64,000 nucleotides of DNA, taken from the IMG/VR virus record IMGVR_UViG_3300012205_000277, positions 1 to 64,000 of that record. One strand, given 5' to 3'. This document shows positions 3,140 through 63,459 of this stretch, in pieces. The translations under genes were made by a program, and so were the position numbers. Under the pieces are notes generated by a model. It was given only the letters and a program-made list of their open reading frames with translations. It was not told where the DNA came from and did not search any database. Origin of the DNA: a virus. Each line of letters starts with the position of its first letter. Position 1 is the stretch's first letter.

Positions 3140-3163
3140 GCAGGCCGGAATAATATCACAAAT

Positions 3164-4632: not shown

Positions 4633-4635
4633 TTT

Positions 4636-6552: not shown

Positions 6553-7097
6553 TCGGGGCGTTGGAAGATCGCGAAACCTACGACGGAGGGCAATACCAGA
6601 TGGGGCCAATCCCGCGCGGCGGCAAAGCTTCCGTACATATTCTGGTAGGCTACGCAGGCATCGTGCCAGCAGACAATCCCGCCGGGAGCAATATTGTGGT
6701 CTCCAAGGCTCATCAATTCCTTCTCGCGCACATTCGGGTCGCCGGAATCGATGTGGACAAAATGCATTGGCGAGGTCCTTGAAGCAAGAAGGTCTTGCCC
6801 TGACATCTGCACGACATCCACCATCGGCAGGTCTAAGAATCGTTGGCGCGCCGGACCGATGCGCTCTGGATCGATGTCGCAGGTAATCAAGCGTCCCGTG
6901 CCGTTATCGCGGAGAGCCCGGCCAATCCATTCGGCCGAATCGCCGACAAACGTGCCGGTTTCAATGCAGACGATCGGCTTAACCATCCGGACTAGCCCGT
7001 AAAGGAGCGCACCCACTTCCTGTTCGACCCCGCGGCCTTCGACCATGTTGTACTGGCTACGCGGTCGACCCGCCGGCAATGCTTGGTACTGTCGCAC
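6549..7097 (-). CDS. Class I SAM-dependent methyltransferase (Methyltransf_24-like)
   Basis: IETGTFVGDS, CDID, FVHIDS, GGIVCWHD. Confidence 0.85.
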   Translation of the reverse strand: MRQYQALPAGRPRSQYNMVEGRGVEQEVGALLYGLVRMVKPIVCIETGTFVGDSAEWIGRALRDNGTGRLITCDIDPERIGPARQRFLDLPMVDVVQMSGQDLLASRTSPMHFVHIDSGDPNVREKELMSLGDHNIAPGGIVCWHDACVAYQNMYGSFAAARDWPHLVLPSVVGFAIFQRPE

Positions 7098-16263: not shown

Positions 16264-17217
16264 CTAATATACAGTTTTTGGAGTAGCTGCAAATTCACAC
16301 TCACCATTAGGCTGCCTCTCCGCGCATCGTGAGATCGTCCTGATTAATCCAAATACGTTTTCCATTCTAGCCCTTTCCTTGAGATGGTCTCTGGCGAATT
16401 GATCCAAATGTAAAATTGACAAACGAATACAATTCATCCGAGTCTTTATGTTTTCTCCAGGAACCATCCATCTGTCCAGGTCTTTAAACCACCAGATTGC
16501 ACAATTAAGTTCCTCATAGTTGTAAACATGCCCGCTTGGGCGCGGCCATAAAACCTCGCCATACATTACGGTTCGCTTCTCGTTTATTTGAAGAGGTTTT
16601 TTACGTTCCTCGTACATACGGATATCTGTTTGTTTGCGGAGCCCGTCAATAATGATTGACTCCGTCGTTGCTGGATGTGCGATGATTCGTTCCTTTGCCG
16701 CTATGGCTATTGGCAAAATCCGATCACGCACGGCAATCAAATCATCGGTTTTGGTTAAATCGTATCGCAGTCGAGTTCTGTGGTTTAACTTGGGGAATAG
16801 GGTGCGAAGGGTAGGTTTCGCAAAGACCTCGGATGTCGATATAAGAAGGCCGTTGTCCATAAGAGTTAAAAATAGGTTCCAGATATCTTGGCTACCGGAC
16901 CGCTTAATTGAGCTTGCTAGATATGACCTGGTTTGCAAATTTTTTATAAAGACGGCTAGTTCTTCCGCTCGCGGAAATGTATAAAATGCCCCATGTCTCT
17001 GTCTGGTCAGGGCATTTGTAGACCCGGACATTTTGTCCGGACCCGGCAAAATGTCCGGGTCGTACGGGGGATTGACTGGCACTGTGGCAATTCCCACCGA
17101 TGTATCTTCCGGTTGGCTGATAATCGAGACGTGCGAAATAACCGATGCATGACCGCATCCTGACAGTTTACCAATAAAACAATTAAGTTGCTCTTCTAAT
17201 TCAGATTCTGGAATCAT
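16264..17217 (-). CDS. Hypothetical protein (AT-richer)
   Basis: 317-aa ORF with AAGGA SD. Confidence 0.65.
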   Translation of the reverse strand: MIPESELEEQLNCFIGKLSGCGHASVISHVSIISQPEDTSVGIATVPVNPPYDPDILPGPDKMSGSTNALTRQRHGAFYTFPRAEELAVFIKNLQTRSYLASSIKRSGSQDIWNLFLTLMDNGLLISTSEVFAKPTLRTLFPKLNHRTRLRYDLTKTDDLIAVRDRILPIAIAAKERIIAHPATTESIIIDGLRKQTDIRMYEERKKPLQINEKRTVMYGEVLWPRPSGHVYNYEELNCAIWWFKDLDRWMVPGENIKTRMNCIRLSILHLDQFARDHLKERARMENVFGLIRTISRCAERQPNGECEFAATPKTVY

Positions 17218-17248
17218 GTATTCCTTTGGAACCCCAGGGGTTGCCCAG

Positions 17249-17458
17249 CTAATCCCGTGTTTTGTGATCCCTTTTTAGAAATGCTTCCAAGCTGGTTTTG
17301 GGGATGAGTGTCTTACGGCCGATCTTCCTCCTCACCAGTTCCTTTGCTTTAAGCAGGTTATTGACGGTGCGAATCGAAATGCCCAAAAAAGTCGCGGCCT
17401 GCGATTTGGTGTACAGCGCCGGCTCAGGGCGCCAGTCGAGTTGGAACGTGTCCGCCAT
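17249..17458 (-). CDS. Excisionase-like helix-turn-helix protein
   Basis: LYTKSQAATFLGISIRTV..L....EL..RKIGRKTLI. Confidence 0.85.
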   Translation of the reverse strand: MADTFQLDWRPEPALYTKSQAATFLGISIRTVNNLLKAKELVRRKIGRKTLIPKTSLEAFLKRDHKTRD

Positions 17459-17536
17459 CTTTCATTGCACCAGTGCGAGAGCTGTTTCGTATTGGTCCTA
17501 TAGATTCCGGAACCGGCCGGAGGACTCCGCCTTGTT

Positions 17537-18526
17537 TTAATCGGCCGCGTCTTGCTTTGCGCTCGCAGGATATTGAACTTCGATTGGGCCGGCGGTGGCA
17601 TTTTTCTTAAATATACTTAATTTGTATACCCTGCCAAAGGAAAATTCCCGTAGCGCAAATGCTGCGACTCCTAGTTGCTTGGCAACACTGAGATGCTCTT
17701 TACGTTCGCTTGCATCCTGGGCATCTTCGATCACTTTACCGGCCTGAACAAGCACGTCCTCCGTACCATCGGGACTCGCTCCGGACTGTAGACGTCTCAG
17801 CTTCTCCAATAGTTCTGATTCCGGCCATTGCCAAAGAAGAAAAAGATAGGCCATCGTAGAAATCTTATCTAATTTCAATATTGGCTTTACCTGTCCCTCC
17901 ATCGACTTTTCAGCTATACGGATCGCCGTGTCAAGGATCGCATCTTGCCGTTCCATTTCCTGCTTGATTTCTTGCGGCGATTTCAATGCAGCCTGGCGAT
18001 TCCCTGCGGCGACGCGGTATGTTGCACTCACTTTAATGATTATTTCCTTTAGTCTCGCATTCAAGATCCCATCCATTTTGGCTGCGTCGGACGCACGGCG
18101 CACCTTAGGATTGTCGACAGTATCGATCGCATCGCGCGCCATTCCGCATACAATGGTTACTTTAAGCGAGTATCCCGCCATCGCCGCGGCGGCAAGTCGG
18201 TTTTGACCATCAGCCAGAGTGCCATCTTTGTAAAAACCAATCGAGGCACAGTTGAATTTCCATAACCCAGTAGTCATGCGCCGAACAAGTTCCGCAACCC
18301 ACTTTGAGTCAAGATCACGGTTGTGCTCATTGGTCGCCATAAATAACAACGCGCATACGCACGGGGAAAGTGTTTGTATCTTGCTAGCTTCGTGGCCAGC
18401 TTTAGCTATAGCCAATAGCTCTTCGAGATCGGCGCTATCTTTCGGCGAAGCATTTGCGGCAATTGATTCAATTTTCTTGCGGATCGTTACCTCAGGACTG
18501 TCCAGGGAAAATAATTCACGGTTCAT
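17537..18526 (-). CDS. ParB/Srx-like (DGQxR) domain protein
   Basis: NRDL....V......M..G.W..N...I.F..DG.L.DGQNRL.A. Confidence 0.7.
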   Translation of the reverse strand: MNRELFSLDSPEVTIRKKIESIAANASPKDSADLEELLAIAKAGHEASKIQTLSPCVCALLFMATNEHNRDLDSKWVAELVRRMTTGLWKFNCASIGFYKDGTLADGQNRLAAAAMAGYSLKVTIVCGMARDAIDTVDNPKVRRASDAAKMDGILNARLKEIIIKVSATYRVAAGNRQAALKSPQEIKQEMERQDAILDTAIRIAEKSMEGQVKPILKLDKISTMAYLFLLWQWPESELLEKLRRLQSGASPDGTEDVLVQAGKVIEDAQDASERKEHLSVAKQLGVAAFALREFSFGRVYKLSIFKKNATAGPIEVQYPASAKQDAAD

Positions 18527-18646: not shown

Positions 18647-18727
18647 GGCGGCACGGAGTGGGTTGGCTGGGCGGGATTTGGTCAGTCAGGAAGAGGCGTG
18701 CAACGATAAGGCATGGCAGGCATGGTT
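18647..18727 (+). ncRNA. Pentamer-repeat candidate guide RNA 2
   Basis: 13 pentamers 18650-18714, each starting with G, then GGCAGGC. Confidence 0.75.
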
Positions 18728-21700
18728 AAATCCCAAGGCGGCGAAGCCGTTCGCTCGGGAGTATCAGTTTCCCGAGGTCCTGTACGGTGTAATCGATTCC
18801 GCTATAAACCAAATTCCTCAGCGTAAATACTTCGCCTTCGATCCCGCTGCCGGCATCCACATATTTTTGTGCGTCGGCTTTCGGATCCAAGTACGCGACG
18901 CAAATGTGCGGCTTATATTCCGGATGGGTTTCTGTGTGCGGGAGTACTTTCAGATCCTCGTGTAACTTTCGCAATTTTTCGCTTTCGATTCGAATTACCA
19001 AAGGCACGCCATCTTCACCAACCGGGAAAGCTTCAAGTCCTTCGATCGTAACTTCTATATCGCCAATTCCTTTGGTGATTTTGTTGATTTGTTTGGCGGT
19101 CACTTCGGCGTGAAAACCCCAAAGTACGGTGACGTGCGGAGCGACATCCCTCCCCTTTTTGGCAAAATCTTCTTCCTCGACTGGAATCGCCAGCACCCGC
19201 TGGGCATCATCGGCCGATAGATTGAATTGGACGCTTCCATATTTGCGTTTCTCGAGAATGTTGCCGAGGATCTTCTGGAACCGGCCGGAAACGGACGTGA
19301 GCTGGGAATTGAACACTTTACGTACAGCATGCTGGATGGCGTGGACGGCTTGTTCGGATTCGGCCGTCAGTACGCCGGCTTCAATACGCGATCCGAGCCG
19401 CTTTTCGAATAACGCTTCGCGAATTTTTTTTTTACCGTCGAGGCTTTCCTTGCCGTTCTCGGCCCCGGTGTTTCTTCCCGTCGACCGGCCGCCACCAGCT
19501 TCCTGGCTGACGGGGGTTCCGCCGCGCGTGGCATTGTGCCCGCCGGCGCCGTTCGTTGCGGGTTTCATAGGCGGTGCCGTGGGCGTTACCGGATGCGGCT
19601 TGATATTTCCCTTTTCATCGACCATCAATCCCGCGGTTGCCGGAGCGACGCCCACCGGAATGAATCCGGTCCCGCTGATCACCCCGAGCTGGTCGGCTTC
19701 CGGCTCCGGCCGCAATTCCTCGCCAACGCGCTTCCGGGCTTCGTTCGGGGTCAGCACGGCTTTCCCGACCAGCATCGTAAGCGCCGCGGCATTCTTCAGC
19801 GGATCCGGCTCGGCATAGGGGTTGATCGCGATTTCATAATCGGTCATGCCCATCTTGCGCTGGATGATGAAATCGATGATCCCTTTGACCCAGAGCACCC
19901 AGGGAAGCGTCCCTTCGACTTCGGCGGCGTCCGAAGACGATTTGCCTTCCGTGCGGATCATCTTCATCAGCCGCTGGGGGCTTGTCCCGTAGCCAAAAGC
20001 GATTTCGCGGATATGCTTTTCGTCGTAGAGCCCGGCCAGGAGCGGCTCTTTCGGGAAAAGAATCTGGTCGATTTTGCCTGGTTCGTTGAATCCTTGCACG
20101 AGCCGCCACTGGTTGCGCTTCGCGAGGTTCCCGGCCAGCTGCGAGTTCATCCATTCCATCGCTTCTTCGATGCGGTCGGGTGAGGTTCCACGTGGAACGA
20201 CTTGAACGACGCCGGGAACGGATCCTTCGGTATTCCCGGACCATGCAACTTTTCCGTTGCGACGGACATAAAGGAATTTATTGGGAACACAGACGCAGCA
20301 AACGGGGCCGCTATATTGTTCGCGGGTTGCGGTCCATCCGCGCGTATTTATGCCTTTACGGCGCGTGACCATCCAGCCAATTCGAGATTTACCTGAACGG
20401 CTATCGGGAAACTTTGCGGTTTGCGCCTTGCGTGTCCATGTTGTTGAAGCATCACCCATCTTCTGGATGATTTCTGTGAGTTGGTCAGCTAGTTTCTTAC
20501 TGACTGTGAACACCTGCGGAGTTCCGGAAGCGCATCCATCACCCATCCAATAATACTTCCAAAAAATCTCCAATTGGCGCGTGGTGGTATCGCGAATATC
20601 ATCCGGGATGAATTTTTGATGCGAATGGCCAAGTGGTTTCAGAAAGTCAACGAGCACTCGGCGCTGAAACTCGAACTGATGGCCGGAATAACATGGCTCG
20701 TCACCGAGAATATCCGCAAGCAGTTTTAGGTAGAGTTCATAACTGCCACGTGTATCTCTTTTCTTTTGGGCAATCTGAATAGACCTTCTGCGCGTAGAGC
20801 CTTCTGCTAAATACATGCCCATGAAAGCGCAATATTGGTCACCAGTCATGCGGACTTCGAGTGGATCTGGGCCACTTCGCTTTTTTGTTGACTTGAACAC
20901 CTTCTCAGAAATCTCAGTTCCCATCCATACAGATGACTGCGGGATTCCGGTGCGTCCGGAATACACTTCTGCCAGTGCATCGGCTTCAATGACAAATTCT
21001 TTTTTGCGCCCAGGCTTGCCTTTTCCAAGAGCGCGAGGCAGTGAATCAACAAGCATCCGATGGTTTGGTGTAACGAGCAGATCCAAACTTTGGCCCTTAA
21101 AGTGGACCATCTCCCCTTCGTAATGTTTATAAAAAGTGTCGTATGCTTTTTGCCACTCAAAGATTCCTGTTTGAATTTGACGTGTCGCAAATTCATCATT
21201 CTCATTTGTTTCTGCAAAACGGAACCAGCCGCGTTTTGTCAAGACTTCGGTATCATCGGAGTAGCAATAGTAGGCAAGAACGAACTGCATGCGTTTGATG
21301 CCGATTTGAATTTCCGGGGCAAGTTGTTCAGTCACGGAATTCCCGTATAGCTGAGAGGCCAGCGTATTGCGGGGCACGATGCTGCGCGGCTTGTAAACGA
21401 GTTGGTCCGTAGTTAGGTCGACCAGCGGCAAGCCCCACCAGTTTTGGGCATAAGCCGGGCTCGGCGGCATGGGCGTAAATCCGTTGTTATCTATATAGCG
21501 CGTGATCATCTCCCCTCTTATCGTAGGGAGTTCCGCGATTTCTCCTTTGTATGTTTTCCTGATCAAAATGCTGGGCGCATCGATGACCAGCAGATCGTCG
21601 AGCAGCGGCCGAAGCCATTCCTGCCAGTTGTGCTCGCGGTCGGGATATTCAAAGAACCGGTTCAGTTTGATCAGGTCGTCTTTGTTGTCTTTGGCGCGCT

Positions 21701-22070
21701 GCGCTACGTCCTTGCGCGACTCCATCGGGTTGGCGCGCATCTGGATTTCCCAGGGCGCGCGCGTCACGGTGTCTTTCACGTTCTCGATGCAGATGCGCGC
21801 CAGCGGATACGTCGCGAGCGCTTTCAGGTCGGCGGCGGAAAATTCCGCGTCGGCCCGCGGGGTAAAAATCAGGTTCTGCCCGGCCCACGTCTGGAAGCCG
21901 CGCGGCTCGGTTCCCGGGGGAGCTAGCGGGCGCACCGGCTGCAGGGGAGAATACCAACTGTCTTGATCGATGCCGCGGATGGTTTCTGGCGGGCGCTGAT
22001 ACAGCGATGTGAGTCCTTGCACCAATTGGGCAACAGGACGGATGACGAGACCGGTGCGGCCGTTTGCCAT
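18726..22070 (-). CDS. Portal protein with LAGLIDADG intein and C-terminal 2H phosphoesterase (Acb1-like) domain
   Basis: Portal segments DLLVIDA, YG.S..EQ, TPNEAR...G; intein; PHVT...PHIC 2H motifs. Confidence 0.85.
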   Translation of the reverse strand: MANGRTGLVIRPVAQLVQGLTSLYQRPPETIRGIDQDSWYSPLQPVRPLAPPGTEPRGFQTWAGQNLIFTPRADAEFSAADLKALATYPLARICIENVKDTVTRAPWEIQMRANPMESRKDVAQRAKDNKDDLIKLNRFFEYPDREHNWQEWLRPLLDDLLVIDAPSILIRKTYKGEIAELPTIRGEMITRYIDNNGFTPMPPSPAYAQNWWGLPLVDLTTDQLVYKPRSIVPRNTLASQLYGNSVTEQLAPEIQIGIKRMQFVLAYYCYSDDTEVLTKRGWFRFAETNENDEFATRQIQTGIFEWQKAYDTFYKHYEGEMVHFKGQSLDLLVTPNHRMLVDSLPRALGKGKPGRKKEFVIEADALAEVYSGRTGIPQSSVWMGTEISEKVFKSTKKRSGPDPLEVRMTGDQYCAFMGMYLAEGSTRRRSIQIAQKKRDTRGSYELYLKLLADILGDEPCYSGHQFEFQRRVLVDFLKPLGHSHQKFIPDDIRDTTTRQLEIFWKYYWMGDGCASGTPQVFTVSKKLADQLTEIIQKMGDASTTWTRKAQTAKFPDSRSGKSRIGWMVTRRKGINTRGWTATREQYSGPVCCVCVPNKFLYVRRNGKVAWSGNTEGSVPGVVQVVPRGTSPDRIEEAMEWMNSQLAGNLAKRNQWRLVQGFNEPGKIDQILFPKEPLLAGLYDEKHIREIAFGYGTSPQRLMKMIRTEGKSSSDAAEVEGTLPWVLWVKGIIDFIIQRKMGMTDYEIAINPYAEPDPLKNAAALTMLVGKAVLTPNEARKRVGEELRPEPEADQLGVISGTGFIPVGVAPATAGLMVDEKGNIKPHPVTPTAPPMKPATNGAGGHNATRGGTPVSQEAGGGRSTGRNTGAENGKESLDGKKKIREALFEKRLGSRIEAGVLTAESEQAVHAIQHAVRKVFNSQLTSVSGRFQKILGNILEKRKYGSVQFNLSADDAQRVLAIPVEEEDFAKKGRDVAPHVTVLWGFHAEVTAKQINKITKGIGDIEVTIEGLEAFPVGEDGVPLVIRIESEKLRKLHEDLKVLPHTETHPEYKPHICVAYLDPKADAQKYVDAGSGIEGEVFTLRNLVYSGIDYTVQDLGKLILPSERLRRLGI
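20232..21266 (-). mobile_element. Intein (345 aa) with LAGLIDADG homing endonuclease
   Basis: YY|CYSDDTEVLTKRGW...VTPNHRM...FMGMYLAEGS...YWMGDG...VRRNGKVAWSGN|T. Confidence 0.92.
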
Positions 22071-39049: not shown

Positions 39050-39487
39050 ATGACCTAGATTCCACAAGAAGAATCTTACGTTTTTTGTTTCATCCGCACT
39101 AACCTCCCGACCGAACATCAATTTGTGCAAGCCCTTCATTCCGTCTATCATCTGGCACAACTCCGCCGCGAAGATGGCACGCCCAACATCGTCCTGATCG
39201 GGTTGCCGGATGCGGCGGCGCTCCGGCGCGCGGAACAGAAGCTGATTGCCGCGAAGATCCCGCATTTTGTTTGGGAAGAGCCGGATTATAATTTTGGGCT
39301 TACGAGCATTGCGACGGCGCCGATCCGCGGCGATGAGCGCAAGGCTTTGGCCAATTATCGAGTTTACAAAGCACCGGTGGTGTCAAGTAGCACGTCGCCC
39401 TCTAAAGGTGAAAGTGTCTGCTCAATACAGACCCGGTGCGCCAATTCCAGTGGGGCAGGCACGGTTGCTAGCGCTGTGCGGGTTTGA
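39050..39487 (+). CDS. PTH2/PTRHD1-like peptidyl-tRNA hydrolase with in-frame TAG at codon 3; ORF runs into the tRNA genes
   Basis: MT*IPQEESYVFCFIRTNL...QALHS...IVLIGLPD...IPHFVWEEPD...TSIATAP...YRVYK. Confidence 0.75.
39371..39443 (+). tRNA. Atypical tRNA, anticodon CUA (amber)
   Basis: GCACCGG/CCGGTGC-G-CCA; D stem GTGT/GCAC with loop CAAGTA lacking GG; stem TCGCC/GGTGA with loop CT-CTA-AA; T stem GTCTG/CAGAC with loop CTCAATA. Confidence 0.8.
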
Positions 39488-39510: not shown

Positions 39511-39585
39511 CCGCGTGTAGCTCAGTGGCAGAGCAGGGACTTCTAAACTCCTTGGGCGCGAGTTCGATTCTCGCCACGCGGTCCA
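39511..39585 (+). tRNA. Amber suppressor tRNA (CUA)
   Basis: CCGCGTG/CACGCGG-T-CCA; canonical TAGCTCAGTGG and GTTCGATTC; loop TT-CTA-AA; C31-C39 mismatch. Confidence 0.88.
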
Positions 39586-39687: not shown

Positions 39688-40794
39688 ATGCCAAACCTCG
39701 AGCTATCCGTCAATTCCATTTGTAAAATCGTTTCCGAAGAAAAATACGGTTTCAAATTCGGCAAGCCCGATCGTCCGTCGGCCGAATCGTTGTCTTGCAT
39801 CCTCCCGATCCTGCGCAAGACGGCGCAAGTCCGCCAATACGTGACGTATCCGGAAAGCGATCAAGTCCTCGTCCACGACTCCGGCAGCATCAACAAAGTC
39901 AACCTGCTCAATTCCTCGAAAGAAAATGTTTTCGTCCGCAGCGGAACGATTTTCGAGGGCAAAGGCACGCAAAGCCGCGCGTTGACGCGCAGTGCGGTGC
40001 TCTTTCCCGGCCAGGCGGTGGCGCTCGATGTGCGCTGCGTGCATGCCTCGCACGGGATCCGCAGCGGGTCGGCATTCGTTTACGGCGGGATCACCCCGCT
40101 GAGCGTCGATACGGCTTTCTATCGTTCCGGGTACACTCCGGGCGATCAGCACACCATGTGGAATACGGTAACGGCCAGCACCACTTCGATGAGCGGCATG
40201 TCGGCTGGCGAGGTCCCCGAACCGGTCCGCGGCAGCTTTGAAAAATGGGCTGGCGCCCCAAGGCGCGGAAGCCGTCGCAGCCTCATGGCTTCCGGCGGAA
40301 GCGTCGTCCAGGACTTCGGCAGAGCCGTCATTGGCGAAGCCGGCCATGAAACGTACCTGCCCAACGCTGACAACCTCAAAGAGAACTTCGATGCGTTCGC
40401 CAAGAACTTTGACGAGATCCTGTCGAAAGCGCGGCTGCATGACAACCAGGTCGGTCTCGGGCTGATTACCGACAAAGGATGCAAAACCGTTGAACTTTTT
40501 GATATAGGCAAATCCTGGGAAGCGGTCCACAAGGATTCTGTAAAACGCGTGGGCGCAGAATTGCTTCGCGGCGAGGACAAAACGAATGTGTTCGAATACA
40601 AGCCGGAGCATGCGGTCAATGCGGTTCGCGCGGTCCTTGGATTGCCGTTCAAAACCAACCTGATCTACCAACATAAGCCGTCGAACGGCGAGCCGCCGGT
40701 ATCGATCTTTGGATTGACGGCCGAGCGCTTCGTCGGCGAAGTGGTCGAGTTGGATTCGCGAGTGATCCACCTGGTCATTATTGAGACGGTGTAA
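39688..40794 (+). CDS. ARPP-1/DUF6569-like protein
   Basis: G.I..V.L.N.S...VF...G..F.G..TQ.R......L.PG....L.V.CV; Q..MW..V. Confidence 0.7.
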   Translation: MPNLELSVNSICKIVSEEKYGFKFGKPDRPSAESLSCILPILRKTAQVRQYVTYPESDQVLVHDSGSINKVNLLNSSKENVFVRSGTIFEGKGTQSRALTRSAVLFPGQAVALDVRCVHASHGIRSGSAFVYGGITPLSVDTAFYRSGYTPGDQHTMWNTVTASTTSMSGMSAGEVPEPVRGSFEKWAGAPRRGSRRSLMASGGSVVQDFGRAVIGEAGHETYLPNADNLKENFDAFAKNFDEILSKARLHDNQVGLGLITDKGCKTVELFDIGKSWEAVHKDSVKRVGAELLRGEDKTNVFEYKPEHAVNAVRAVLGLPFKTNLIYQHKPSNGEPPVSIFGLTAERFVGEVVELDSRVIHLVIIETV

Positions 40795-46165: not shown

Positions 46166-48075
46166 GCGAAGCAACCGAAATAGTCCACTGGCCCGGCCAG
46201 GACACTCCGATGTGTGACCGTCATACGTTGCAAGCGAAGCGTATCGGTCAGGCTATGGGAATCACCGTCAGCTCTACTCCATGGCCGGTAGAAGGCACGA
46301 TCTGCAAGAACTGCGAGAACGAAGCAAAGAAGGCAGCAGCCAAATAGTGAGGTAGCAATGGACGAACGACGCTCCGGAAAAAATAAATCACACTCGACTT
46401 TGGAGCAAAAGGTGGAATGGCTGCTGAGGCATCCTCTCTTCCTGAAAGAGATTCTGGACAAGAAGAAACTTGTGGCGGAGATGAAGAAGGACAAACTGAT
46501 CGCGCCGTCCACCTATTGGAGAGATATCAATCTGGAGGATGCGATTAAGCAGGCGAAGATTAGGACATGAGACTGGGGATGAAAAGAGGACTGCCCGGAA
46601 TGCGCAGTCCTCAGCCCTAGCCCAGACACCTGCCAAACCGAAGTTTACTTCGCGCCAGCGGATTTTTCAAGGATTGAACCAATGGTATTTTCTGCAAAAG
46701 AAAGAGGTTTGAGGTCGCCAAGTAAAAGCATTTTTTTTTGGAGCAGCCGACAGACTTCGAGGCGCACCTCGAGCGGCCATGCCTCATCGTGGATTACATG
46801 GTTGTGGATATCCAGTAACATGTACCAGCGCCGCATACGGGAGCAGCCTCTGTTCTGTTACCTGTAAAATTGGTTTAATTCGTACGCTTAAACCACTACG
46901 ATAGCAATAGTACCGGGAGGCAAGTACGGAAGTACTCTCCATGATCTCTCCCATTGACGTCCACACCATAGAATCAATTGATACCGACGTGAATAAATTC
47001 GCCGGTGGCTTCATCGTCGCGCGGGCCGAAGGGAATACTCTCGTCGAGGCCTATCATTGTGATACGCAGTCGGAAGCGGACAGTCTGGCCCGCAGCTTAT
47101 TCGAGGACAAACTAGGATATGTGGAAGTCTTTATCAAGGAAACCATTCATTGAGCGAAGAAAAACGCCCTTTCACGAAAGAGCAACCGCATTATGGAGAA
47201 TCGATTCTTCATTGCGGCCATCCCAATAGCCGGCCGCAGCACTTCTACAGTTTTGGCCCAGGCATGCCGGAGAAAGAATGGAAATCGCCGGATGGAAGAG
47301 CAGTGATGTCGCGCTGGATGGTGTTGTGCGATGATTGCAACAAAATCTATGGCTTCACGCCGCATTTGGCAATTCAAGCGGATGCCACATGGAAAGCGCT
47401 CGATCCGGTGATCCAAATACCGGAAGTAAGGAAAAATAAAATATGAGATCGATATCGCCAGTAATTCCCGGGATGGACCTGGAAGAAACTGTTTTTGCAA
47501 AGCATCAGCCGCAATACAATCCGTTGCCGGCCGTCATGGTCGATGGCCGCGTGATCAGCCGGTGGAAGCTGACCTGGCGTGAACGGTTCAAGCTGCTCGT
47601 AACCGGGAACCTTTGGCTGACGCTGTTGACTTTCGGGCAGCCGCTCCAGCCGATTCTCATCGAGATAGACTCACCCAAACGTTATCTCGAAGAAGAGAAA
47701 GAAGAAACGCTGGCCGACGCTTAAAGTTTTCAATATCCGTGCACTGCACAGCCTCGGCTTCTAAAAAGCACGGTGCGTTCGCTTTTGTTACATCGAGTGC
47801 ATGTCCACAAACAATCGAGGCACCCACACCGAAGAGTGATATTTATTTTCTCCCACCGATGCCTGAAGATTTTACAAAGCAGGCCCAGCTTCATAGCGAC
47901 ACTCGATTGAGCAATGCAATTTCCGGAGGGGAAAGTTTGCCAGCGCACAGGAAACAGATCCAGGAATCCTCGAGTTTTTCCGTGCGCGCCGGGCAAAGTG
48001 GCCCGGGATCGCCAAGACGCCGCGGCAGCGTGCACGTTCGCAAGTGTCCGCATTTGGAGCAAAAATGAGTGTGGG

Positions 48076-49203
48076 TCATGGGCATTGGGATTCCTTCCGA
48101 TCGTTGTAAGTCGGCCCATAGCCTTCGATGCGAACCAGTTTCCGGAATTCGGCTGGCAGCGGGTTTGGCGCCTGGTCCAGATGGTTCAAGGCAATCCAGT
48201 CGACCCCGCCGCAAATAGCGAGTGCTTTGCGGAATAGCTGCTCGTCGAAACGGCCGTACCGGAATGCTCCGGGGAATCCTGGCTCGTTGTGCGGCTCGGG
48301 ATAGCTCAGAGTCGGATCTTCGGTCGGGAATGCTCCGAGGCCGTGCCGTGTGTAGTAGGTACGGATAATGCCGACGCGCGTGCGTTTGCCATCATAGCCG
48401 GATTCATTCAGGAGCGTATCCGCATTGTGGAATGTGCAATCCGTCCACGTATTGAATCCCGGCTCGCCATGATTCTCATCGAGCAGCACGCCCTGGGCCC
48501 CTTCGAAGATGGCGCAATCTGTCTCGGCGAGCAAGGTTTTCAGATGCCCGCGGTCGACCACCTTCGCCGGCCAGTTTTTGTACCAGCTCCAGCACACGTC
48601 GATCAGATCGTCTTTCTGCAGCGTTGGATCGACATAGCGTACGAATGGCTTGGTCATAAACCCGGCGGCGCTCAATTCATCCGAGGCCCAGAGTTCGATA
48701 AACTTAAGTTTCTGGCGAACTAAAGTTTCATTTTTTAGGTCGCCGGCGAACAGTGCCCGATCGCCAAACTCCAGATGGAATTGGCGGCACTTGCCGATGC
48801 CCTGGCCGCAAGTGTTCGTGCGGTTGCCTGGAAGAGTCAAGAGGCGGTTCAATTCTCTGTGGAAAGGGGTGACGATTAATGCTTCGGCGTCGACCGTTGT
48901 ACGCTCCCAGGCGTCAGTGACGCCAAGTGATGCCAAATGCTCAGCTTCTCTCATAGCATTTATTGGATTGTAAAGCATAAATCTTGAGATATGCGTGCGC
49001 ACACCGGGATGGAAAGTGCCACTCCCGAATTGCTGGAAGATATGATGCCGGCCGTCGGGTGTCACTACGGAATGCCCTGCTTGGCAGCCTCCGGAATAGC
49101 GGACGACAAGCCCGGCATTATGCCAAAAAGTAAGTGCGTCAACTGTACTGCCTTTGCCGCAGTCGCCAAAACCCAAGCCGCAGACGAGGAAACTTTGCTT
49201 CAC
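48076..49203 (-). CDS. purA: Adenylosuccinate synthetase-like protein
   Basis: GLGFGDCGKG, GGCQAGH, FEGAQG.LLD, Y.TRHG.G. Confidence 0.88.
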   Translation of the reverse strand: MKQSFLVCGLGFGDCGKGSTVDALTFWHNAGLVVRYSGGCQAGHSVVTPDGRHHIFQQFGSGTFHPGVRTHISRFMLYNPINAMREAEHLASLGVTDAWERTTVDAEALIVTPFHRELNRLLTLPGNRTNTCGQGIGKCRQFHLEFGDRALFAGDLKNETLVRQKLKFIELWASDELSAAGFMTKPFVRYVDPTLQKDDLIDVCWSWYKNWPAKVVDRGHLKTLLAETDCAIFEGAQGVLLDENHGEPGFNTWTDCTFHNADTLLNESGYDGKRTRVGIIRTYYTRHGLGAFPTEDPTLSYPEPHNEPGFPGAFRYGRFDEQLFRKALAICGGVDWIALNHLDQAPNPLPAEFRKLVRIEGYGPTYNDRKESQCP

Positions 49204-49220
49204 AATCCCTCCTAAATTAA

Positions 49221-49247
49221 GATAGGGCCGCGATTAACGGCCCTATC
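49221..49247 (-). terminator. Terminator-like hairpin between RNA 4 and purA
   Basis: GATAGGGCCG/CGGCCCTATC followed by TTAATTT. Confidence 0.55.
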
Positions 49248-49249
49248 CA

Positions 49250-49331
49250 TTTGACGTGCCTGCCACACCCAGCCCTGGCTCGACCGGTCTTTCCATGCCT
49301 TTGCATTCCAAGGCCCGCCTGCAGCGTCAAA
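49250..49331 (-). ncRNA. Pentamer-repeat candidate guide RNA 4
   Basis: 11 G-initial pentamers plus GGCAGGC, closed by a TTTGACG/CGTCAAA stem. Confidence 0.75.
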
Positions 49332-49964
49332 CTCTTATCGCAATTCTATCCATCTGTGTGCCGCGTTCTTGCGAAGCCACTCCCCGGCTTTTTGATAAAG
49401 CGGATTGTTCGGTTCGCGGCTGTAGCCGTAGCCGTCGGTCACACCGTTCCGGTAGGACCACTTCATGCAGAAGCTGGCTACGATGATCCATGTCAAATTC
49501 CCAATGAGTATCCAACCGAATATTTCAGTCATCGTCGTCCCTTTCATTTCTTGTCGAGGCAGGCTGTAGGATCGAGTCCGCAATTCGGGACCGGGACATG
49601 CCGCATGAGATAACCCCAAACCAAACCGGAAGCGATGATACAGAAATAGATCAGCAAAGCCTTCTTCGTCTCTTTCTTCATGGCTTACCCCCCCTTATCG
49701 CGTGTAGGCCAAAAGACCCAAACTATGGCGAGGTTCACAAAGCCTACGACCATCAGTATCGCCAATAGCCACTCTACCCCGCCCATTGTGGCCTTCGCTT
49801 TGCCAGAGCCTTCTGCACGGTCGTCGCATGAATGCACAAGAGCTTCGCAATTTCCGGTTTGCTGACCCCGCGCGCGGCGAGACGGCGAATCTCGTCGGCG
49901 CGGGCATCGGCATTCTTCTTTTTGCGGGCTGCGACAGCGGTTCTCTTTGTGAGTTGATAGTCCA

Positions 49965-54196: not shown

Positions 54197-55003
54197 TCAT
54201 GGGAACAATCCACTTTTCTCTTTGCCGTACTGGAAGTAGGCAGATGGATATTCTTGAATTTTGCCTTCGCCTTCTAGCTCAATTTTCATTTCTGTTCTGG
54301 GAGCACTGCTTTGTTTGAACCAGAAAGCAATATCATGCTTCCTACAAATCTTCAGGATGCGCCTGGCCCACTCATGATCCATGAAACGAAATAAGTCAGA
54401 ATTGTTTCCGGATTCTCCGCCCACAATCAGTTGCGAGAAGCCGTCAACATATTCCTCTAGGTCCGGCGTAATGTCTTCGAGCAATGGCTCGGCGGATACA
54501 AACCGAACGTATGCGGGAATCGCGCGGAGCACTGCCATGCGTTTCAAATACTTTTTGCTTTCGACGCTCACTCCCATCCAACAATTCTTATAACCAATCC
54601 CCCAATCAGTAGGTAGGCGCCGCTCAATCAATTCCGGGCGCTTGGTCAATATCTGATAGACCAGGTTCGGAGTGTCTCGGATGATCTTCCATACTTCCGG
54701 ACGCCATTGGTCGGCATCTTGAATGAAGAAATCACTCAAGCTGCAAGTAAAAACCAGATCGTAACGCTTGGCCTTTTCTGCTTCCCGTTGCCAGCGTTTT
54801 GGATCGTTCCAAGTTTTTGTGCGGACTACCGTATCAAATGGATGAGGATTCGCCGGTGTGCCGCGCATCCGGTTAATCATTGCTCGGGCATAGCATGCGT
54901 GGCACCCTGGCGACACGGTCCTGCAGCCAATAAATGGATTCCAAGTTTTTGAGGCCCAGCTAATACGCGTTGTATCGCCCAAATTTACTCCTTTCACCTT
55001 CAC
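54197..55003 (-). CDS. DUF5131 (phage Gp37/Gp68) three-Cys protein
   Basis: WNP..GC..VSPGC..CYA, LSDFF, LTKRPE, S.EPLL, GGESG. Confidence 0.9.
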   Translation of the reverse strand: MKVKGVNLGDTTRISWASKTWNPFIGCRTVSPGCHACYARAMINRMRGTPANPHPFDTVVRTKTWNDPKRWQREAEKAKRYDLVFTCSLSDFFIQDADQWRPEVWKIIRDTPNLVYQILTKRPELIERRLPTDWGIGYKNCWMGVSVESKKYLKRMAVLRAIPAYVRFVSAEPLLEDITPDLEEYVDGFSQLIVGGESGNNSDLFRFMDHEWARRILKICRKHDIAFWFKQSSAPRTEMKIELEGEGKIQEYPSAYFQYGKEKSGLFP

Positions 55004-55006
55004 TGA

Positions 55007-55125
55007 CTTACCTGTCCCTGCCGTACAATTCCAAGAACGCGAACACCGCGCCTAACCCAAGCGGGCCAGTTCGTGTCTTGTCCCGCCGAGGCTGGACATG
55101 CCATGACTAACCGGTCCGGGTTAAG
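55007..55125 (-). ncRNA. Pentamer-repeat candidate guide RNA 5
   Basis: ~20 pentamers (first 15 G-initial) plus GGGACAGG; promoter TTGACA(55152-55147) with -10 TAATCT (N17) or TATAAT (N15). Confidence 0.72.
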
Positions 55126-55158
55126 ATTATAACTTAGGGTCTAATTTGTCAATGATTT

Positions 55159-55839
55159 TTACTGCGCTTCGACAAGCAAGCCGTAGTAATCGACTCTTCC
55201 TAGATTGATAACATAGCCTCTGGTAATATGGGCCGTCGGGCACGGCATCGTCAGAAGACATTTGTCCGCGTAATCAAATACTTCTTTCTTTCCGGGAACA
55301 TTCCAACTCTCAGGGATACCCATCACCCGCTTTGCCAACTTGCTGATCGGCATCTTGCCGCTTCCGGGTCCGTGTTGGCCATAAGATACAGTCCCGCGCG
55401 TCAAAAATACAACTGTGCGTTGCTTGATCCGGAATAGCAATTCATGCCAGATCTCCCATGGATCGCCGTAACAGTCCACGTCCACCGTGTTATACCTACC
55501 CAAGCCTGTGCCGGTGTATTCATCGACTTTCGTATCGCCATTCAAGGCCGCGATAAAGCGCGGCGTGATTTTAATTTGGAGCTGGCCGGCTTGCTTCGCG
55601 ACTGCATCGACCGGCGTATACGTTTGGACTTGCAAGGCCCGCGGCTGATCCTCGGGAGATAAGTCCGGATCGTAGCGCGGCTGGCGCCGGAGCTCCGACC
55701 AAACCATTCCCTCCCCGGCAAATAAATCAAGGACACGCAGCGGTTCCATCTGGGCTTCCTCAATCAGGAACCTTCGTAGGTAAACTTTATCGGCTAAAGA
55801 ACGATTGTCGGTTTTTTTCTGCAGCGCCGAAGCACTCAT
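55159..55839 (-). CDS. Methyltransferase-like protein upstream of DUF5131
   Basis: VLDLFAGEG..W, Y..VD.D.YG.P. Confidence 0.6.
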   Translation of the reverse strand: MSASALQKKTDNRSLADKVYLRRFLIEEAQMEPLRVLDLFAGEGMVWSELRRQPRYDPDLSPEDQPRALQVQTYTPVDAVAKQAGQLQIKITPRFIAALNGDTKVDEYTGTGLGRYNTVDVDCYGDPWEIWHELLFRIKQRTVVFLTRGTVSYGQHGPGSGKMPISKLAKRVMGIPESWNVPGKKEVFDYADKCLLTMPCPTAHITRGYVINLGRVDYYGLLVEAQ

Positions 55840-56385
55840 AGCGGATCGAGCCCGATATCGAGCGCCTTGAAAATCCACTGGCTTATTTCTGTCGCCGTGG
55901 CCAAGTCGCGCGCGCTGATTCTCAGGTCTGCAAGTTCGGTTTGGAATTCCGGCTGGTCCCAACAGGGAGCGTTGATCCAATGGCAAAGATAGTCGCGCAC
56001 CAAAGAAATCTGTTCGTCAGTAACCGTGGTTCCTTTGATCCGATTGTCCAGGTAAGCGTTGACGGCGCTGATCAATGTTCCGGAGACTTCATCGCGCCAA
56101 AAAAAAGGGAGCCCCAGCGGGGGCTTGTACGCGGCCGGCATAATTGTCATGGGGATTTGTCTCTAGGCAACAGCAGCTTCAGATTCGGGTTCAGGCTTTT
56201 TCTTTTTGGAGCCGGGCGGTCTGCCGCCAAGTTTTGCCCATCTGGATAATTGCGCGGCGGAATGTCTTTTTGCGCGAGCGCGGCCGCCTTTGCTGCCAAC
56301 TTTTTGGAAAAATTCCAAAGCCGGGCCGCTCAATTTCAATTTGTCTTTCTTTGCCATTGGTTCCTCGTCTGGTCATAAGTATACA

Positions 56386-61461: not shown

Positions 61462-62071
61462 TTCGTTTCTCCCTTGCAAAACTTCCAGGCGTCTTGCTGC
61501 CCTTTAAATAACTTTCCCTTGCTTATTGAGGAAGGCTTTCCAAGTGAACCGCGTGCACTCGCATTGGAGGCATTCAAGATGATGCAGGTCTCCGCCATGC
61601 TGTGACCTCTTGTGGCCGCAGCAGCAGAGTTCTTCGATGACCTTTGACCAATCGCGTTTCTTCTTCTTCATCAGGCTAGTTTCCGGCCATTGCGATTGCG
61701 CGCTTGATTGTTCGGGTAGAAAGACGCATTGTGAAATAGGTCCACTTCCGCCCCACTTTCGTGCTGAAAATCTTACCGCCTGCAAGTTGTGGCTTCAGAT
61801 GAATCGCTTTCATTTGGTTTCTCCTTTTTGTTATCGAGCATGTGTTTCGATAAATTCAGCGGCCTTGATGGCCATTGCCCGCCGATCGTCCATCGATACG
61901 GCTGTCTGTGAATGGCTTGGCCCTATCAGCCATCCGGCCCAGAACGCCAGTGCCGGCCCGGCCTCGGAATCAGATACTTCTGGTACTTCTCCGGTAAGCT
62001 GATACTGCCGCAGCCATTCGCTCACTTTCATGTTTGGTACCTCTTAAAATTAGCGGCGGTTCCCGGCCCGC

Positions 62072-62159
62072 GTTTGCCGTTCCTGCCTTGCCGGGCCAAG
62101 GCGGGCCTTTTCGCAACTTTGCCCGCCTCTCCTTCCTTTCCTAGCCTGCCACGGCAAAC
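62072..62159 (-). ncRNA. Pentamer-repeat candidate guide RNA 7
   Basis: ~12 G-initial units between GGCAGG motifs; closed by GTTTGCCGT/ACGGCAAAC. Confidence 0.65.
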
Positions 62160-63230
62160 TTAGGCTGCAATCCCTTCTTTGAAAGCTTTCTTTAGTTGAG
62201 AAAAAACACATTCCGATTCCGCTATATCGGTGCGCATTTCCTTGACCCGCGGCTGAAAAAGTCTTCCACCGGCGCCGACATATAAGAATGTGATTTCGAG
62301 AATTGAACCAATCCTAATTCGAGAATCTTTCCCGTTCAAACTAACGCGGCCAACTTCACGCCATTTGCCTTCGTCGAGCAGTGCGAGTGTCGCGGAATTG
62401 TGACCTTTATGACCCATTCCAATGACCTTGCAACTCGCGCTCTTTAAGAATTTGAATTTCTTGTGTTGGCCGTTCCGACCTGCACGGTAAGGTGCATCTT
62501 TGCATTTGAAGCAGACACCTTCAGCGCGTTTTTTCAGAAGCAATGCTAAGGCGGCTTGCTTTTGTGTCGTTGAAAGCCAGGTATCGACCGTGAATTCCGG
62601 AGCCTTCTCGTCAAGAAGTAGCCAGCGCTTTTCGTAAGGCATGGTTTTGATATTCGTTCCATCGGCAAAGAAAATATCGAAGGCGTAATACTTGTCGCCG
62701 ATGATCTCGCCATCTATGAAAAAAGAATCAAGGGCGATGGCTTTGAGACTGTCGACCAATTCTGCCGGGAGTGCAACTGTTTCACCCTTTTTGTTATAGC
62801 CCACGAAATTGCTGGCCTTTGTCTTTTCAATTTGGCGGCGATGTCCGTCGAGTTTGGTTTGCAGAATATAGCGGTCATCTTTGACTAATGCTTCCGCTTC
62901 TTCTCGCGTGATTTCTTCCAACAACTCGACCGGGAACTGCGTCCGCGTGCTGTTGGCTGGCGGTTCAACTGGTGCGAGCGGTGCCGCGGTGCCAGCTTCC
63001 GCGCCGACGTAGCCCTTGCTTGTTTTTTCGCGGACCAGGCGTTCGTAAATCTTGGTTGCTTCTTCGAGCGAAACTGGCGTTGGCGTCTTAGTCCCCGCGG
63101 TCAAAGTCCCAGCGCGACGACCATATTGAAAAAGCACAACGTATGCAGTACCTTTTTTGACCAACTGAAGCCGATACTCCTTATCCGAGTTCTCTTCGAG
63201 GCTCTTGTAATACAAAATCGTTGCCTTCAT
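62160..63230 (-). CDS. WGR-domain ATP-dependent DNA ligase
   Basis: SDKEY...YGR WGR domain; KLDGHR, DGE, AFD, EG...K, KFKF ligase motifs. Confidence 0.85.
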   Translation of the reverse strand: MKATILYYKSLEENSDKEYRLQLVKKGTAYVVLFQYGRRAGTLTAGTKTPTPVSLEEATKIYERLVREKTSKGYVGAEAGTAAPLAPVEPPANSTRTQFPVELLEEITREEAEALVKDDRYILQTKLDGHRRQIEKTKASNFVGYNKKGETVALPAELVDSLKAIALDSFFIDGEIIGDKYYAFDIFFADGTNIKTMPYEKRWLLLDEKAPEFTVDTWLSTTQKQAALALLLKKRAEGVCFKCKDAPYRAGRNGQHKKFKFLKSASCKVIGMGHKGHNSATLALLDEGKWREVGRVSLNGKDSRIRIGSILEITFLYVGAGGRLFQPRVKEMRTDIAESECVFSQLKKAFKEGIAA

Positions 63231-63459
63231 TTTGATTCTCCCTTTGCATCGGATTCCAGGCTCGATGTTGCCCACAAAAATCGTCAAACTGTCACGTCGA
63301 ACTGTTCCAAGAGGTCGGCGATGGCTTCCTCTTCGGTCGCTCCTTTTCCAATGATTGCCTTCGAATCAGGATCTCCACCATCGATTGTGCCGTCCACATA
63401 GGCTTGCCAGTCGTAGTTGCGCGTTGGAATTGGAGGACAGACGAATACGGTTTTGATGT

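What the first reader, a model, noticed from the sequence alone, without database searches (positions are those of the whole stretch)
48964..49331. RNA 4 decodes to a purA allele (antisense)
The NN string is GG TT AT AA AT AA CG GA AG TG GT. Its reverse complement read as codon starts gives T-H-L-S-R-F-M-L-I/M-N-P, against the resident THISRFMLYNP at 48996-48964. Seven of 11 dinucleotides are exact, and the three half-mismatches are synonymous or conservative (CGn/AGA Arg, TTn/CTT Leu, L/I). Here the RNA is antisense to the mRNA, whereas RNAs 2 and 3 are sense, so the common target is more likely dsDNA. A terminator-like hairpin follows, just before the purA SD.
Basis: seen in the sequence. 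Interest (0 to 1): 0.88.

Follow-up and report, generated by a model that had tools for sequence, protein, structure and literature searches.

The report
Phage VIPR guide aimed at rivals' purA
The short non-coding stretch before this soil phage's PurA-like gene is a guide RNA of the recently described CRISPR-like VIPR kind, and it spells the version of that gene carried by related phages (up to 21 of 22 read bases) while the phage's own copy is mismatched at five of the read bases.

Summary

- **The element.** On the minus strand at 49319-49265 lie 11 five-base units, each a fixed G-rich triplet followed by two variable bases (NN). A GGCAGGCACG tail, a 12-bp hairpin and the PurA-like gene's ribosome-binding site follow. 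It is one of seven such units in the 91.8-kb contig.
- **The kind.** This is the vrRNA format of VIPR systems (bioRxiv 10.64898/2026.04.26.720920). In these, the NN bases pair with DNA and every third target base is skipped.
- **The decode.** The NN string gives T-H-L-S-R-F-M-(L/F)-(I/M)-N-P.
- **Own gene.** It reads THISRFMLYNP and matches 17/22, no better than chance taken alone.
- **Homologues.** They read THLSRFML[VI]NP. In 80 viral PurA-like loci the guide's best hit is at this same site in every locus scoring 16 or more. It scores 21/22 in two loci and 18 or more in 20. Shuffled guides never exceed 18.
- **Controls.** Only pentamer positions 4-5 with a 1-base skip give this signal.
- **Sister phage.** Its copy of the guide differs in one unit and matches a complete 179-kb relative 22/22.
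- **Own deviations.** Ile72 and Tyr78 are unusual residues, and Arg74 and Leu77 use the other codon family.
- **Gaps.** No Vipr protein gene was found in this partial contig, and expression is untested.

This is a known kind of system in a linked "guide beside mismatched allele" layout.

The parts
49265..49319 (-). Guide region of vrRNA 'E49' (the finder's RNA 4). It has 11 pentamers: ggcGG gccTT ggaAT gcaAA ggcAT ggaAA gacCG gtcGA gccAG ggcTG ggtGT. The capital letters are the NN read-out.
   Evidence: Only this register with a 1-base skip finds PurA-like genes.
49249..49264 (-). 3' tail start, GGCAG GCACG TCAAAT. Its two NN-like pairs (AG, CG) do not match the targets. The GGCAGG motif recurs at the 3' end of all seven elements.
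   Evidence: units 12-13 score 1 of 4 on G001. In the fold, 5' UUUGACGCUGCA pairs with the tail.
49221..49248 (-). 12-bp hairpin followed by TTAATTT (49214-49220). It is the likely 3' end or terminator of the vrRNA.
   Evidence: MFE -53.6 kcal/mol, z = -4.2. The strict scanner did not call it.
49320..49334 (-). 5' flank of the vrRNA, directly after the stop codon (49335-49337) of the upstream small ORF 49335-49619(-). No consensus sigma-70 promoter is present.
   Evidence: This flank is conserved in relatives L203 and L208.
48076..49203 (-). PurA-like adenylosuccinate-synthetase-family gene (375 aa, GTG start, SD AGGAGG 49208-49213).
   Evidence: homologues carry PF00709. (P-loop GFGDCGKG).
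48964..48996 (-). The phage's own copy of the targeted site, codons 70-80 (THISRFMLYNP). It matches the guide 17/22 (0.77). The mismatches are at Ile72, Arg74 (AGA), Leu77 (CTT) and Tyr78.
18650..18729 (+). vrRNA E18: 13 guide units plus a GGCAGGCATGG tail, preceded by a TTGTCA-17-TAAGAT promoter-like site. Its best genome-wide match is 20/26 at 19093-19130(-), in the adjacent 1114-aa gene (TVLWGFHAEVTAK).
55043..55117 (-). vrRNA E55 (15 units), directly after a TTGACA...TATAAT promoter-like site. It lies between the TcmP-like and DUF5131 genes. No target was found.
62053..62132 (-). vrRNA E62 (9 guide units plus a GGCAGGAACGGCAAA tail), directly 3' of the phage's own DNA ligase gene (62160-63287). 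It matches the ligase gene of relative G001 16/18, in frame, and the phage's own ligase site 9/18.

Best explanation
The element at 49319-49221(-) is a single-guide vrRNA gene of a VIPR-type system. Each five-base unit would be held through its G-rich triplet by one subunit of a Cas7-like Vipr filament. The 11 exposed NN dinucleotides would pair with double-stranded DNA while skipping every third base, so that codon wobble positions are ignored.

The guide is tuned to the conserved THLSRFML(I)NP-coding stretch of PurA-like genes in related, competing phages. Bound there, the filament would block transcription of that gene.

The phage's own PurA-like gene lies 20 nt downstream of the vrRNA hairpin. 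It carries five mismatches at read positions: two unusual amino acids, Ile72 and Tyr78, and two switches between the codon families of six-fold degenerate residues, Arg CGN to AGA and Leu TTR to CTT. This puts it below the 0.8 identity level used in the literature for candidate targets.

Shown here: the repeat format, the code (register and skip), the match to non-self alleles, and the mismatched own allele. Inferred: transcription of the RNA, loading onto a Vipr protein (none was found in this partial contig), DNA binding, silencing, and protection of the own allele.
For: 1. Format. There is G at every fifth base for 13 units here and in 7 elements of the contig. The pentamer composition is G 96% / G 53% / C+T 76% with G 1% / N / N, followed by a GGCAGG tail and a hairpin. 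This is the GGY/NN vrRNA format, with relaxed variants, described in 10.64898/2026.04.26.720920.

2. Code. Only positions 4-5 with a 1-base skip give a signal on 80 PurA-like loci: maximum 21/22 and 20 loci at 18 or more. The other 19 combinations reach at most 18, in at most 2 loci.

3. Target. The best hit is at the homologous, wobble-aligned site in every locus scoring 16 or more. Shuffled guides reach 18 at most. Homologues read THLSRFML[VI]NP.

4. Sister phages L203 and L208 (PurA 89% and 87% identical) keep the same vrRNA with one unit changed (AA to AG). That version matches G001 22/22. Their own allele scores 18/22 against their own guide.

5. The own allele is odd exactly where it mismatches. 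Codon 72 is Leu in 56 of 56 located homologous sites, and only 1 of 120 homologues has Ile there. No homologue has Tyr at codon 78.

6. Generality. The best genome-wide self-matches of E18, E49 and E87 lie within 700 nt of each guide and are codon-phased. E62 matches the G001 allele of its neighbouring ligase gene 16/18, against 9/18 for the own gene.

7. G001 is a syntenic relative, with most ORFs at 45-85% amino-acid identity. Variant alleles and guides co-occur in one soil run.
Against: No Vipr/RAMP gene was identified in G000 or in the complete relative G001. PF03787 gave no hit, Pfam and NCBIfam scans of about 50 ORFs found no RAMP, and no Cas7-like motif was seen. The guides may therefore be orphans.

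No exact 22/22 target of this phage's own guide exists in the viral or JGI metagenome collections.

The second G of the triplet is kept in only about half of the units. That G is a protein contact in the solved SUSP1 complex.

No consensus promoter precedes E49.

Mismatch tolerance of this VIPR branch is unknown, so immunity of the own allele at 17/22 is an inference.
Confidence: 0.8

Rival explanations
1. The guide regulates the phage's own PurA-like gene. The filament would bind the imperfect site 270 nt downstream and throttle or time transcription of that gene (self-regulation rather than warfare).
For: The guide sits directly upstream of the gene it resembles. The 17/22 site is the best in the genome. 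A hairpin separates the guide from the gene.
Against: Non-self alleles match better: 21/22, and 22/22 for the sister guide. The own gene deviates from an otherwise conserved motif exactly at the read positions. A self-regulator would be expected to keep a good match. Published surveys found no self-hits at 0.8 or above, and lower self scores than non-self scores. E62 scores only 9/18 on its own neighbouring gene.
Confidence: 0.08
2. These are orphan or relic guides. The vrRNA-like units are real descendants of VIPR guides but have no Vipr partner in this phage. They are either inert or depend on a Vipr supplied by a host, prophage or rival phage (the 'solo vrRNA' situation).
For: No Vipr was found in G000 or in the complete relative G001. 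Hundreds of VIPR-null phages with solo vrRNAs are reported in 10.64898/2026.10.15.759431.
Against: The format, tail and hairpin are kept in all seven units. The guide is conserved, with a meaningful single-unit change, in sister phages. This speaks for ongoing selection. RAMPs are hard to detect by sequence and G000 is only about 60% complete. This rival concerns the source of the protein, not the reading of the guide.
Confidence: 0.1
3. Chance numerology: the NN decode matches purA by accident.
For: The self-match alone (17/22) lies within the range of shuffled guides.
Against: 20 of 80 homologous loci score 18 or more at the same site, against 0.05 expected. Only one of 20 register/skip combinations works. 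A 22/22 match exists for the sister guide.
Confidence: 0.01
4. The element is a TRAP-like leader/attenuator: a ring protein would bind the period-5 G tract and control the hairpin before purA.
For: The period of 5 nt and a hairpin directly before a gene resemble the B. subtilis trp leader (my own knowledge).
Against: There is no (G/U)AG triplet consensus; the base before the fixed G is unbiased. E18 stands alone on the opposite strand with no gene behind it. The variable bases carry target information.
Confidence: 0.01

Closest known systems
VIPR systems (Vipr + vrRNA), type II of Escherichia phage SUSP1 and a Pseudomonas fulva prophage (bioRxiv 10.64898/2026.04.26.720920; structures in 10.64898/2026.04.26.720927)
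   Same: Five-base repeat units with a fixed G-rich triplet and two variable bases. 9-16 units per RNA followed by a 3' tail. Target read with every third base skipped. Wobble-aligned targets in coding sequence on either strand. Carried by phages and aimed at competing mobile elements.
   Different: Only the first G is near-invariant: G2 is kept in 53% of units, and position 3 is C/T 76%, A 23%, and G only 1%. The tail is a short GGCAGG motif plus a hairpin rather than the SUSP1 pseudoknot tail (not tested structurally). The guides are single, scattered transcription-unit-like cassettes across the genome instead of an array beside vipr. No vipr or vap gene was identified.
Solo vrRNAs of VIPR-null phages and satellites (bioRxiv 10.64898/2026.10.15.759431)
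   Same: Stand-alone guides without an adjacent vipr gene. Self-match scores are lower than non-self scores, which that paper reads as avoiding autoimmunity. Wobble-aligned targets lie in conserved coding sequence.
   Different: Published solos target vipr genes, other vrRNAs, satellites or host REP elements. Here the targets are rival alleles of ordinary phage genes (PurA-like, DNA ligase, a 1114-aa gene). Each guide also lies next to the phage's own mismatched copy. Word searches of the first and third VIPR preprints found no mention of that layout.
Class 1 CRISPR crRNA on Cas7 backbones
   Same: A periodic protein filament on a guide RNA, with regularly interrupted pairing. Vipr is reported as a RAMP relative.
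   Different: The period is 5 with 2 paired bases against 1 skipped target base, not 6 with 5 paired. There are no repeat-spacer array, no cas genes and no adaptation module here.
Free-standing homing endonucleases / marker exclusion in T-even phages (analogy from my own knowledge)
   Same: A selfish determinant sits beside the phage's own resistant version of the sequence it attacks in relatives.
   Different: Recognition here is RNA-guided and presumably silences rather than cleaves. No nuclease link or gene conversion was shown.

Membership tests
VIPR system (vrRNA component) | Tandem 5-nt units with a conserved GGY triplet alternating with hypervariable NN, 9-16 units per RNA | tested here: met
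   E49 has 11 guide units plus 2 tail units. Across 100 units of the 7 elements, position 1 is G 96%, position 2 is G 53%, position 3 is C 57% / T 19% / A 23% / G 1%, and positions 4-5 are unbiased. This is a relaxed form. The preprint mentions NNNGG, YNNNG and NNNNG variants.
VIPR system (vrRNA component) | NN dinucleotides specify a target by the 1-nt skip rule, with natural hits at 80% NN identity or more | tested here: met
   21/22 (0.95) in L122/G001 and L133. 22/22 for the sister guide from L203. Shuffled guides reach at most 18. Only register 4-5 with skip 1 works.
VIPR system (vrRNA component) | Skipped bases fall on codon wobble positions of a coding target | tested here: met
   The read bases are codon positions 1-2 of residues 70-80 in the own gene and in all homologues.
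VIPR system (vrRNA component) | No self-target at 80% NN identity or more on the source contig | tested here: met
   The best own-genome site is 17/22 = 0.77.
VIPR system (vrRNA component) | Conserved structured 3' tail capping the repeat tract | tested here: inconclusive
   All seven elements share a GGCAGG motif followed by a hairpin or terminator-like stem. The tails differ in sequence. Pseudoknot and covariation were not tested.
VIPR system (whole system) | A Vipr protein (minimal Cas7-like RAMP) encoded by the same element | tested here: inconclusive
   None was found. PF03787 gave no hit in G000 or G001. Pfam or NCBIfam scans of about 50 ORFs, a motif scan and one Atlas look-up found nothing. 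G000 is about 60% complete, and RAMPs usually escape sequence searches. No structure screen was run.
VIPR system (whole system) | The vrRNA is expressed as a roughly 100-nt RNA and co-purifies with Vipr; the complex binds dsDNA and represses transcription | not testable with these tools
   Only DNA runs from soil metagenomes hold the sequence.
TRAP-type attenuator (B. subtilis trp leader) | About 11 (G/U)AG triplets spaced by 2-3 nt; a TRAP protein; antiterminator/terminator alternative | tested here: not met
   There is no base preference before the fixed G. E18 has no downstream gene.
CRISPR array | Direct repeats of 24-48 nt separated by unique spacers; cas genes nearby | tested here: not met
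   No such repeats, no Rfam hit other than tRNAs, and no RAMP family hit.

The most novel reading that the evidence does not exclude
In this soil-phage lineage, VIPR guides may be organised as linked cassettes. Each single guide sits beside the phage's own recoded, presumably resistant copy of the gene whose rival alleles it targets.

Because the guide skips wobble bases, resistance is bought in only two ways. One is an amino-acid change in an otherwise conserved motif. The other is a switch between the two codon families of Arg, Leu or Ser.

Such guide-plus-immune-allele pairs would be inherited together in recombination between co-infecting relatives. They could spread like homing elements or marker-exclusion modules, possibly using a Vipr protein supplied in trans.
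Probability: 0.4. Interest if true: 0.75.

Novelty: new variant of a known kind. Interest (0 to 1): 0.6.

Why it matters
VIPR was described only in 2026, from enterobacterial and Pseudomonas examples whose guides aim at satellites, prophage regulators or other VIPR loci.

This case shows the same gapped code at work in an uncultured soil phage, with a relaxed repeat that has one fixed G. The guides are aimed at ordinary metabolic and replication genes of sister phages.

It also gives a clean natural example of how a genome escapes a wobble-blind guide: Arg CGN to AGA, Leu TTR to CTT, and rare residue changes in a conserved motif.

The guide-next-to-resistant-allele layout makes targets predictable from a single genome. 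It suggests an allele-level exclusion mechanism between related phages that could be tested directly with reporters.

For annotation, it shows that period-5 G tracts in phage intergenic gaps can be decoded, and that their neighbouring genes are the first place to look for the target family.

Tried and rejected
**Alternative readings**
- A TRAP-like or ring-protein attenuator was my first idea. I dropped it once the composition and the VIPR literature were seen.

**Target searches that found nothing**
- The exact 22/22 pattern gave no hit in viral contigs or metagenome contigs.
- Single-protein search for related loci in viral contigs and genome contigs found no close relative.
- None of the 80 viral PurA-like loci has a vrRNA-like tract within 6 kb.
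- The 8-unit alternative element of L204-L207 gave no convincing target.

**Vipr hunt, all negative**
- PF03787 in G000 and G001.
- Pfam on 40 ORFs and NCBIfam on 10 ORFs.
- A Cas7-like motif regex.
- An ESM Atlas look-up of ORF 16264-17217.
- tblastn of all G000 and G001 ORFs against 119 array-bearing IMG/VR loci. The two recurrent array-neighbour families turned out to be a helical WDD..AA..R protein near terminase and a C5 DNA methyltransferase.
- Reading by eye the G001 region that G000 lacks.
- The two structure-prediction jobs were not spent, because no candidate stood out.

**Unavailable or uninformative**
- The record behind L206 is not held.
- No RNA holder is listed among public runs.
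- Parts of the stretch had no contig cover in runs X4-X6.

**Side checks**
- TAG recoding (because of two tRNA-CUA genes) is rejected as a global code. 20 of 88 ORFs with a G001 homologue end in TAG, nine of them on the main coding strand, for example 2282-3139 and 7057-8097.
- E39 (39959-39999) is a 9-G run inside a credible 368-aa ORF. I treat it as chance.
- E62's first 'self-match' at 61884-61930 is not codon-phased and is probably chance.

Full report
**What is in the sequence**

On the minus strand, directly after the stop codon of a small ORF (49335-49619), the sequence runs TTGACGCTGCA and then 13 pentamers that each start with G (49319-49255). Next come TCAAAT, a 12-bp hairpin (49221-49248), TTAATTT, AGGAGG, and the GTG start at 49203 of a 375-aa PurA-like ORF.

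The finder's NN string is positions 4-5 of the first 11 pentamers. The last two pentamers (GGCAG GCACG) belong to a motif shared by all such elements, and they do not match any target.

A run of 13 G at period 5 is itself unusual. The window holds three more such runs: 18650+ with 16 G, 55117- with 15 and 62132- with 12. The 91.8-kb contig holds seven in all. No other base or period gives a run longer than 11, the longest being period-3 and period-6 runs. Windows with at least 11 of 12 G number 32, against 0-3 in 20 shuffles.

Over 100 units the pentamer composition is: position 1 G 96%; position 2 G 53%; position 3 C 57%, T 19%, A 23%, G 1%; positions 4-5 any base.

Several elements start 7-9 nt after a sigma-70-like promoter (E18, E55, E74). 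Most end in a hairpin with a T run before the next gene's ribosome-binding site. E18 stands alone on the opposite strand.

**What kind of thing it is**

An IMG/VR scan for (GNHNN)x13 followed by G found many viral contigs with diverse, non-tandem pentamer tracts punctuated by GGCAGG.

A literature search led to the VIPR preprints. In these systems vrRNAs consist of 9-16 GGY/NN units plus a 3' tail. One Cas7-like Vipr protomer binds each unit and sequesters the GGY triplet. The NN bases pair with dsDNA while every third target base is skipped, which usually falls on the codon wobble position. Either strand can be targeted, and the outcome is transcriptional silencing of competing mobile elements (10.64898/2026.04.26.720920; 10.64898/2026.04.26.720927).

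Relaxed repeat forms and solo vrRNAs without vipr are also described. So is the observation that self-match scores are lower than non-self scores (10.64898/2026.10.15.759431). The finder applied this published rule.

**Testing the decode**

The phage's own gene reads THISRFMLYNP at codons 70-80 and matches 17/22. Taken alone this is within the range of shuffled guides.

Among the 120 best homologues the stretch reads THLSRFML[VI]NP, and four read exactly THLSRFMLINP.

I fetched 80 viral PurA-like loci and scanned them with the 11-unit guide.
- In every locus scoring 16 or more, the best hit is at the homologous site, antisense to the gene.
- Scores are 21/22 in L122 and L133, 20/22 in three loci, and 18 or more in 20 loci.
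- 200 shuffled guides over the same DNA reached at most 18, with a mean of 0.05 loci at 18 or more.

As a control on the code itself, I tried all five dinucleotide registers of the pentamer against skips of 0-3. Only positions 4-5 with skip 1 gave a signal. No perfect 22/22 site exists in the viral or JGI metagenome collections.

**Relatives**

Metagenome contigs L203 and L208 (PurA 89% and 87% identical) carry the same vrRNA at the same place, with one unit changed (AA to AG). That guide matches L122 22/22. Their own allele (THLSRFMLISP) scores 18/22 against their own guide.

L204-L207 (82-87% identical, including a 132.7-kb contig) carry a different 8-unit G-periodic element at the same spot. 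The site before purA is therefore a changeable guide slot.

L122 lies on a complete 178,858-bp viral genome, G001. G001 is a syntenic relative of this phage, with most ORFs at 45-85% amino-acid identity. Other guides of this contig also point to G001:
- E62 lies directly 3' of the phage's own DNA ligase gene. It matches G001's ligase in frame, 16/18, with the first eight units perfect. The own ligase site scores 9/18.
- E18 matches the homologous site of the adjacent 1114-aa gene 20/26 in both genomes. In G001 the first seven units are perfect.
- E87 matches the start of a small ORF 600 nt downstream 19/26, codon-phased.

For E18, E49 and E87 the best site in the whole contig lies within 700 nt of the guide itself. 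By rough estimate, the chance of that for three of seven guides is about 1e-4.

One soil run contains contigs identical to the window together with variant contigs that differ at the target site and in the guide. Related lineages therefore co-occur.

**The phage's own allele**

At the 11 codons, the 56 homologous sites I could locate show Leu at codon 72 in all 56, against Ile (ATC) here. At codon 78 they show Val or Ile, never Tyr, against TAC here. Arg74 is CGN in 35 and AGR in 6, against AGA here. Codon 77 begins CT in 29 and TT in 6; here it is CTT, while the guide wants TT.

All five mismatches therefore sit at read positions. Two are rare residues in a conserved motif, and two are switches between codon families. 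For a guide that ignores wobble bases, family switches at Arg, Leu or Ser are the only silent changes it can detect.

**Mechanism, and what remains inferred**

The most likely reading is a vrRNA that directs a Vipr filament to the PurA-like gene of rival relatives and blocks its transcription, while the resident gene escapes. The E49 guide is antisense to the mRNA and others are sense, which agrees with dsDNA recognition.

Not shown here:
- **Transcription.** Only DNA runs hold the sequence, and no consensus promoter precedes E49.
- **The protein partner.** No Vipr was found in G000, which CheckV rates about 60% complete and which lacks the part matching G001 97.8-142.3 kb. None was found in G001 either. 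RAMPs usually escape sequence searches, and no structure screen was run. The alternative is solo guides that use a Vipr supplied in trans.
- **Mismatch tolerance** of this branch.

**Comparison and novelty**

This is a member of a kind published in 2026. It differs in three ways:
- only the first G of the unit is near-fixed;
- the guides are single, scattered cassettes;
- each guide lies beside the phage's own mismatched copy of its target family.

Word searches of the first and third VIPR preprints found no such layout. Other agents of this scan noted the same layout in other soil phages. Those are unchecked AI notes, but my results here agree with them independently.

**Verdict:** observation confirmed, interpretation supported, and a new variant of a known kind.

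Noticed in passing
window 39371-39443 and 39511-39585 (+): Two tRNA genes with a CUA anticodon (amber-suppressor type; ARAGORN labels them Pyl; Rfam tRNA scores of 44.6 and 59.9 bits). TAG is still used as a stop in 20 of 88 ORFs with a G001 homologue (nine on the main coding strand), so there is no global recoding. Their role is unexplained.
   Followed up: partly
window 18726-22070 (-): A 1114-aa ORF with a weak LAGLIDADG-like hit and a C-terminal 2H-phosphoesterase / Acb1-like (anti-CBASS) domain at residues 966-1070. Guide E18's look-alike site (TVLWGFHAEVT) lies in that domain.
   Followed up: partly
window 54197-55986 (-): A DUF5131 protein and an adjacent methyltransferase-like (TcmP-type, by eye) protein, with vrRNA E55 in the gap between them.
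   Followed up: no
window 62160-63287 (-) and genome 69781-70614 (L120:5781-6614, -): The phage encodes an ATP-dependent DNA ligase with a WGR domain and a Ku homologue (an NHEJ-like pair). vrRNAs E62 and E70 lie beside the ligase and Ku genes respectively.
   Followed up: partly
L204-L207, about 170 nt upstream of their purA-like genes: Close relatives carry a different 8-unit G-periodic element (NN = AC AC TT CA AA GC AA CA) with a GCAGGCAGAAAGG tail at the same slot where this phage has E49. Its target was not found.
   Followed up: partly
G001 (L214) 47936-48080 (+), next to the terL homologue: The complete relative has two overlapping or staggered pentamer tracts (19 and 14 units) abutting the 3' end of its terminase large-subunit gene. 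This phage has no tract at the matching place.
   Followed up: no
window 2282-8097 (-): A cluster of glycosyltransferase-like genes, a UDP-glucose/GDP-mannose dehydrogenase and, further on, an FkbM methyltransferase, near the capsid gene (9577-11256).
   Followed up: no
window 16264-18526 (-): Two genes next to E18, a 317-aa ORF of unknown function and a 329-aa ParB-like (DGQNR motif, by eye) protein, have no counterpart in the otherwise syntenic relative G001.
   Followed up: no
window 39688-40794 (+): A credible 368-aa ORF of unknown family (no Pfam or NCBIfam hit) lies opposite a longer spurious minus-strand ORF. The weak 9-G period-5 run (39959-39999) falls inside it and looks like chance.
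   Followed up: partly
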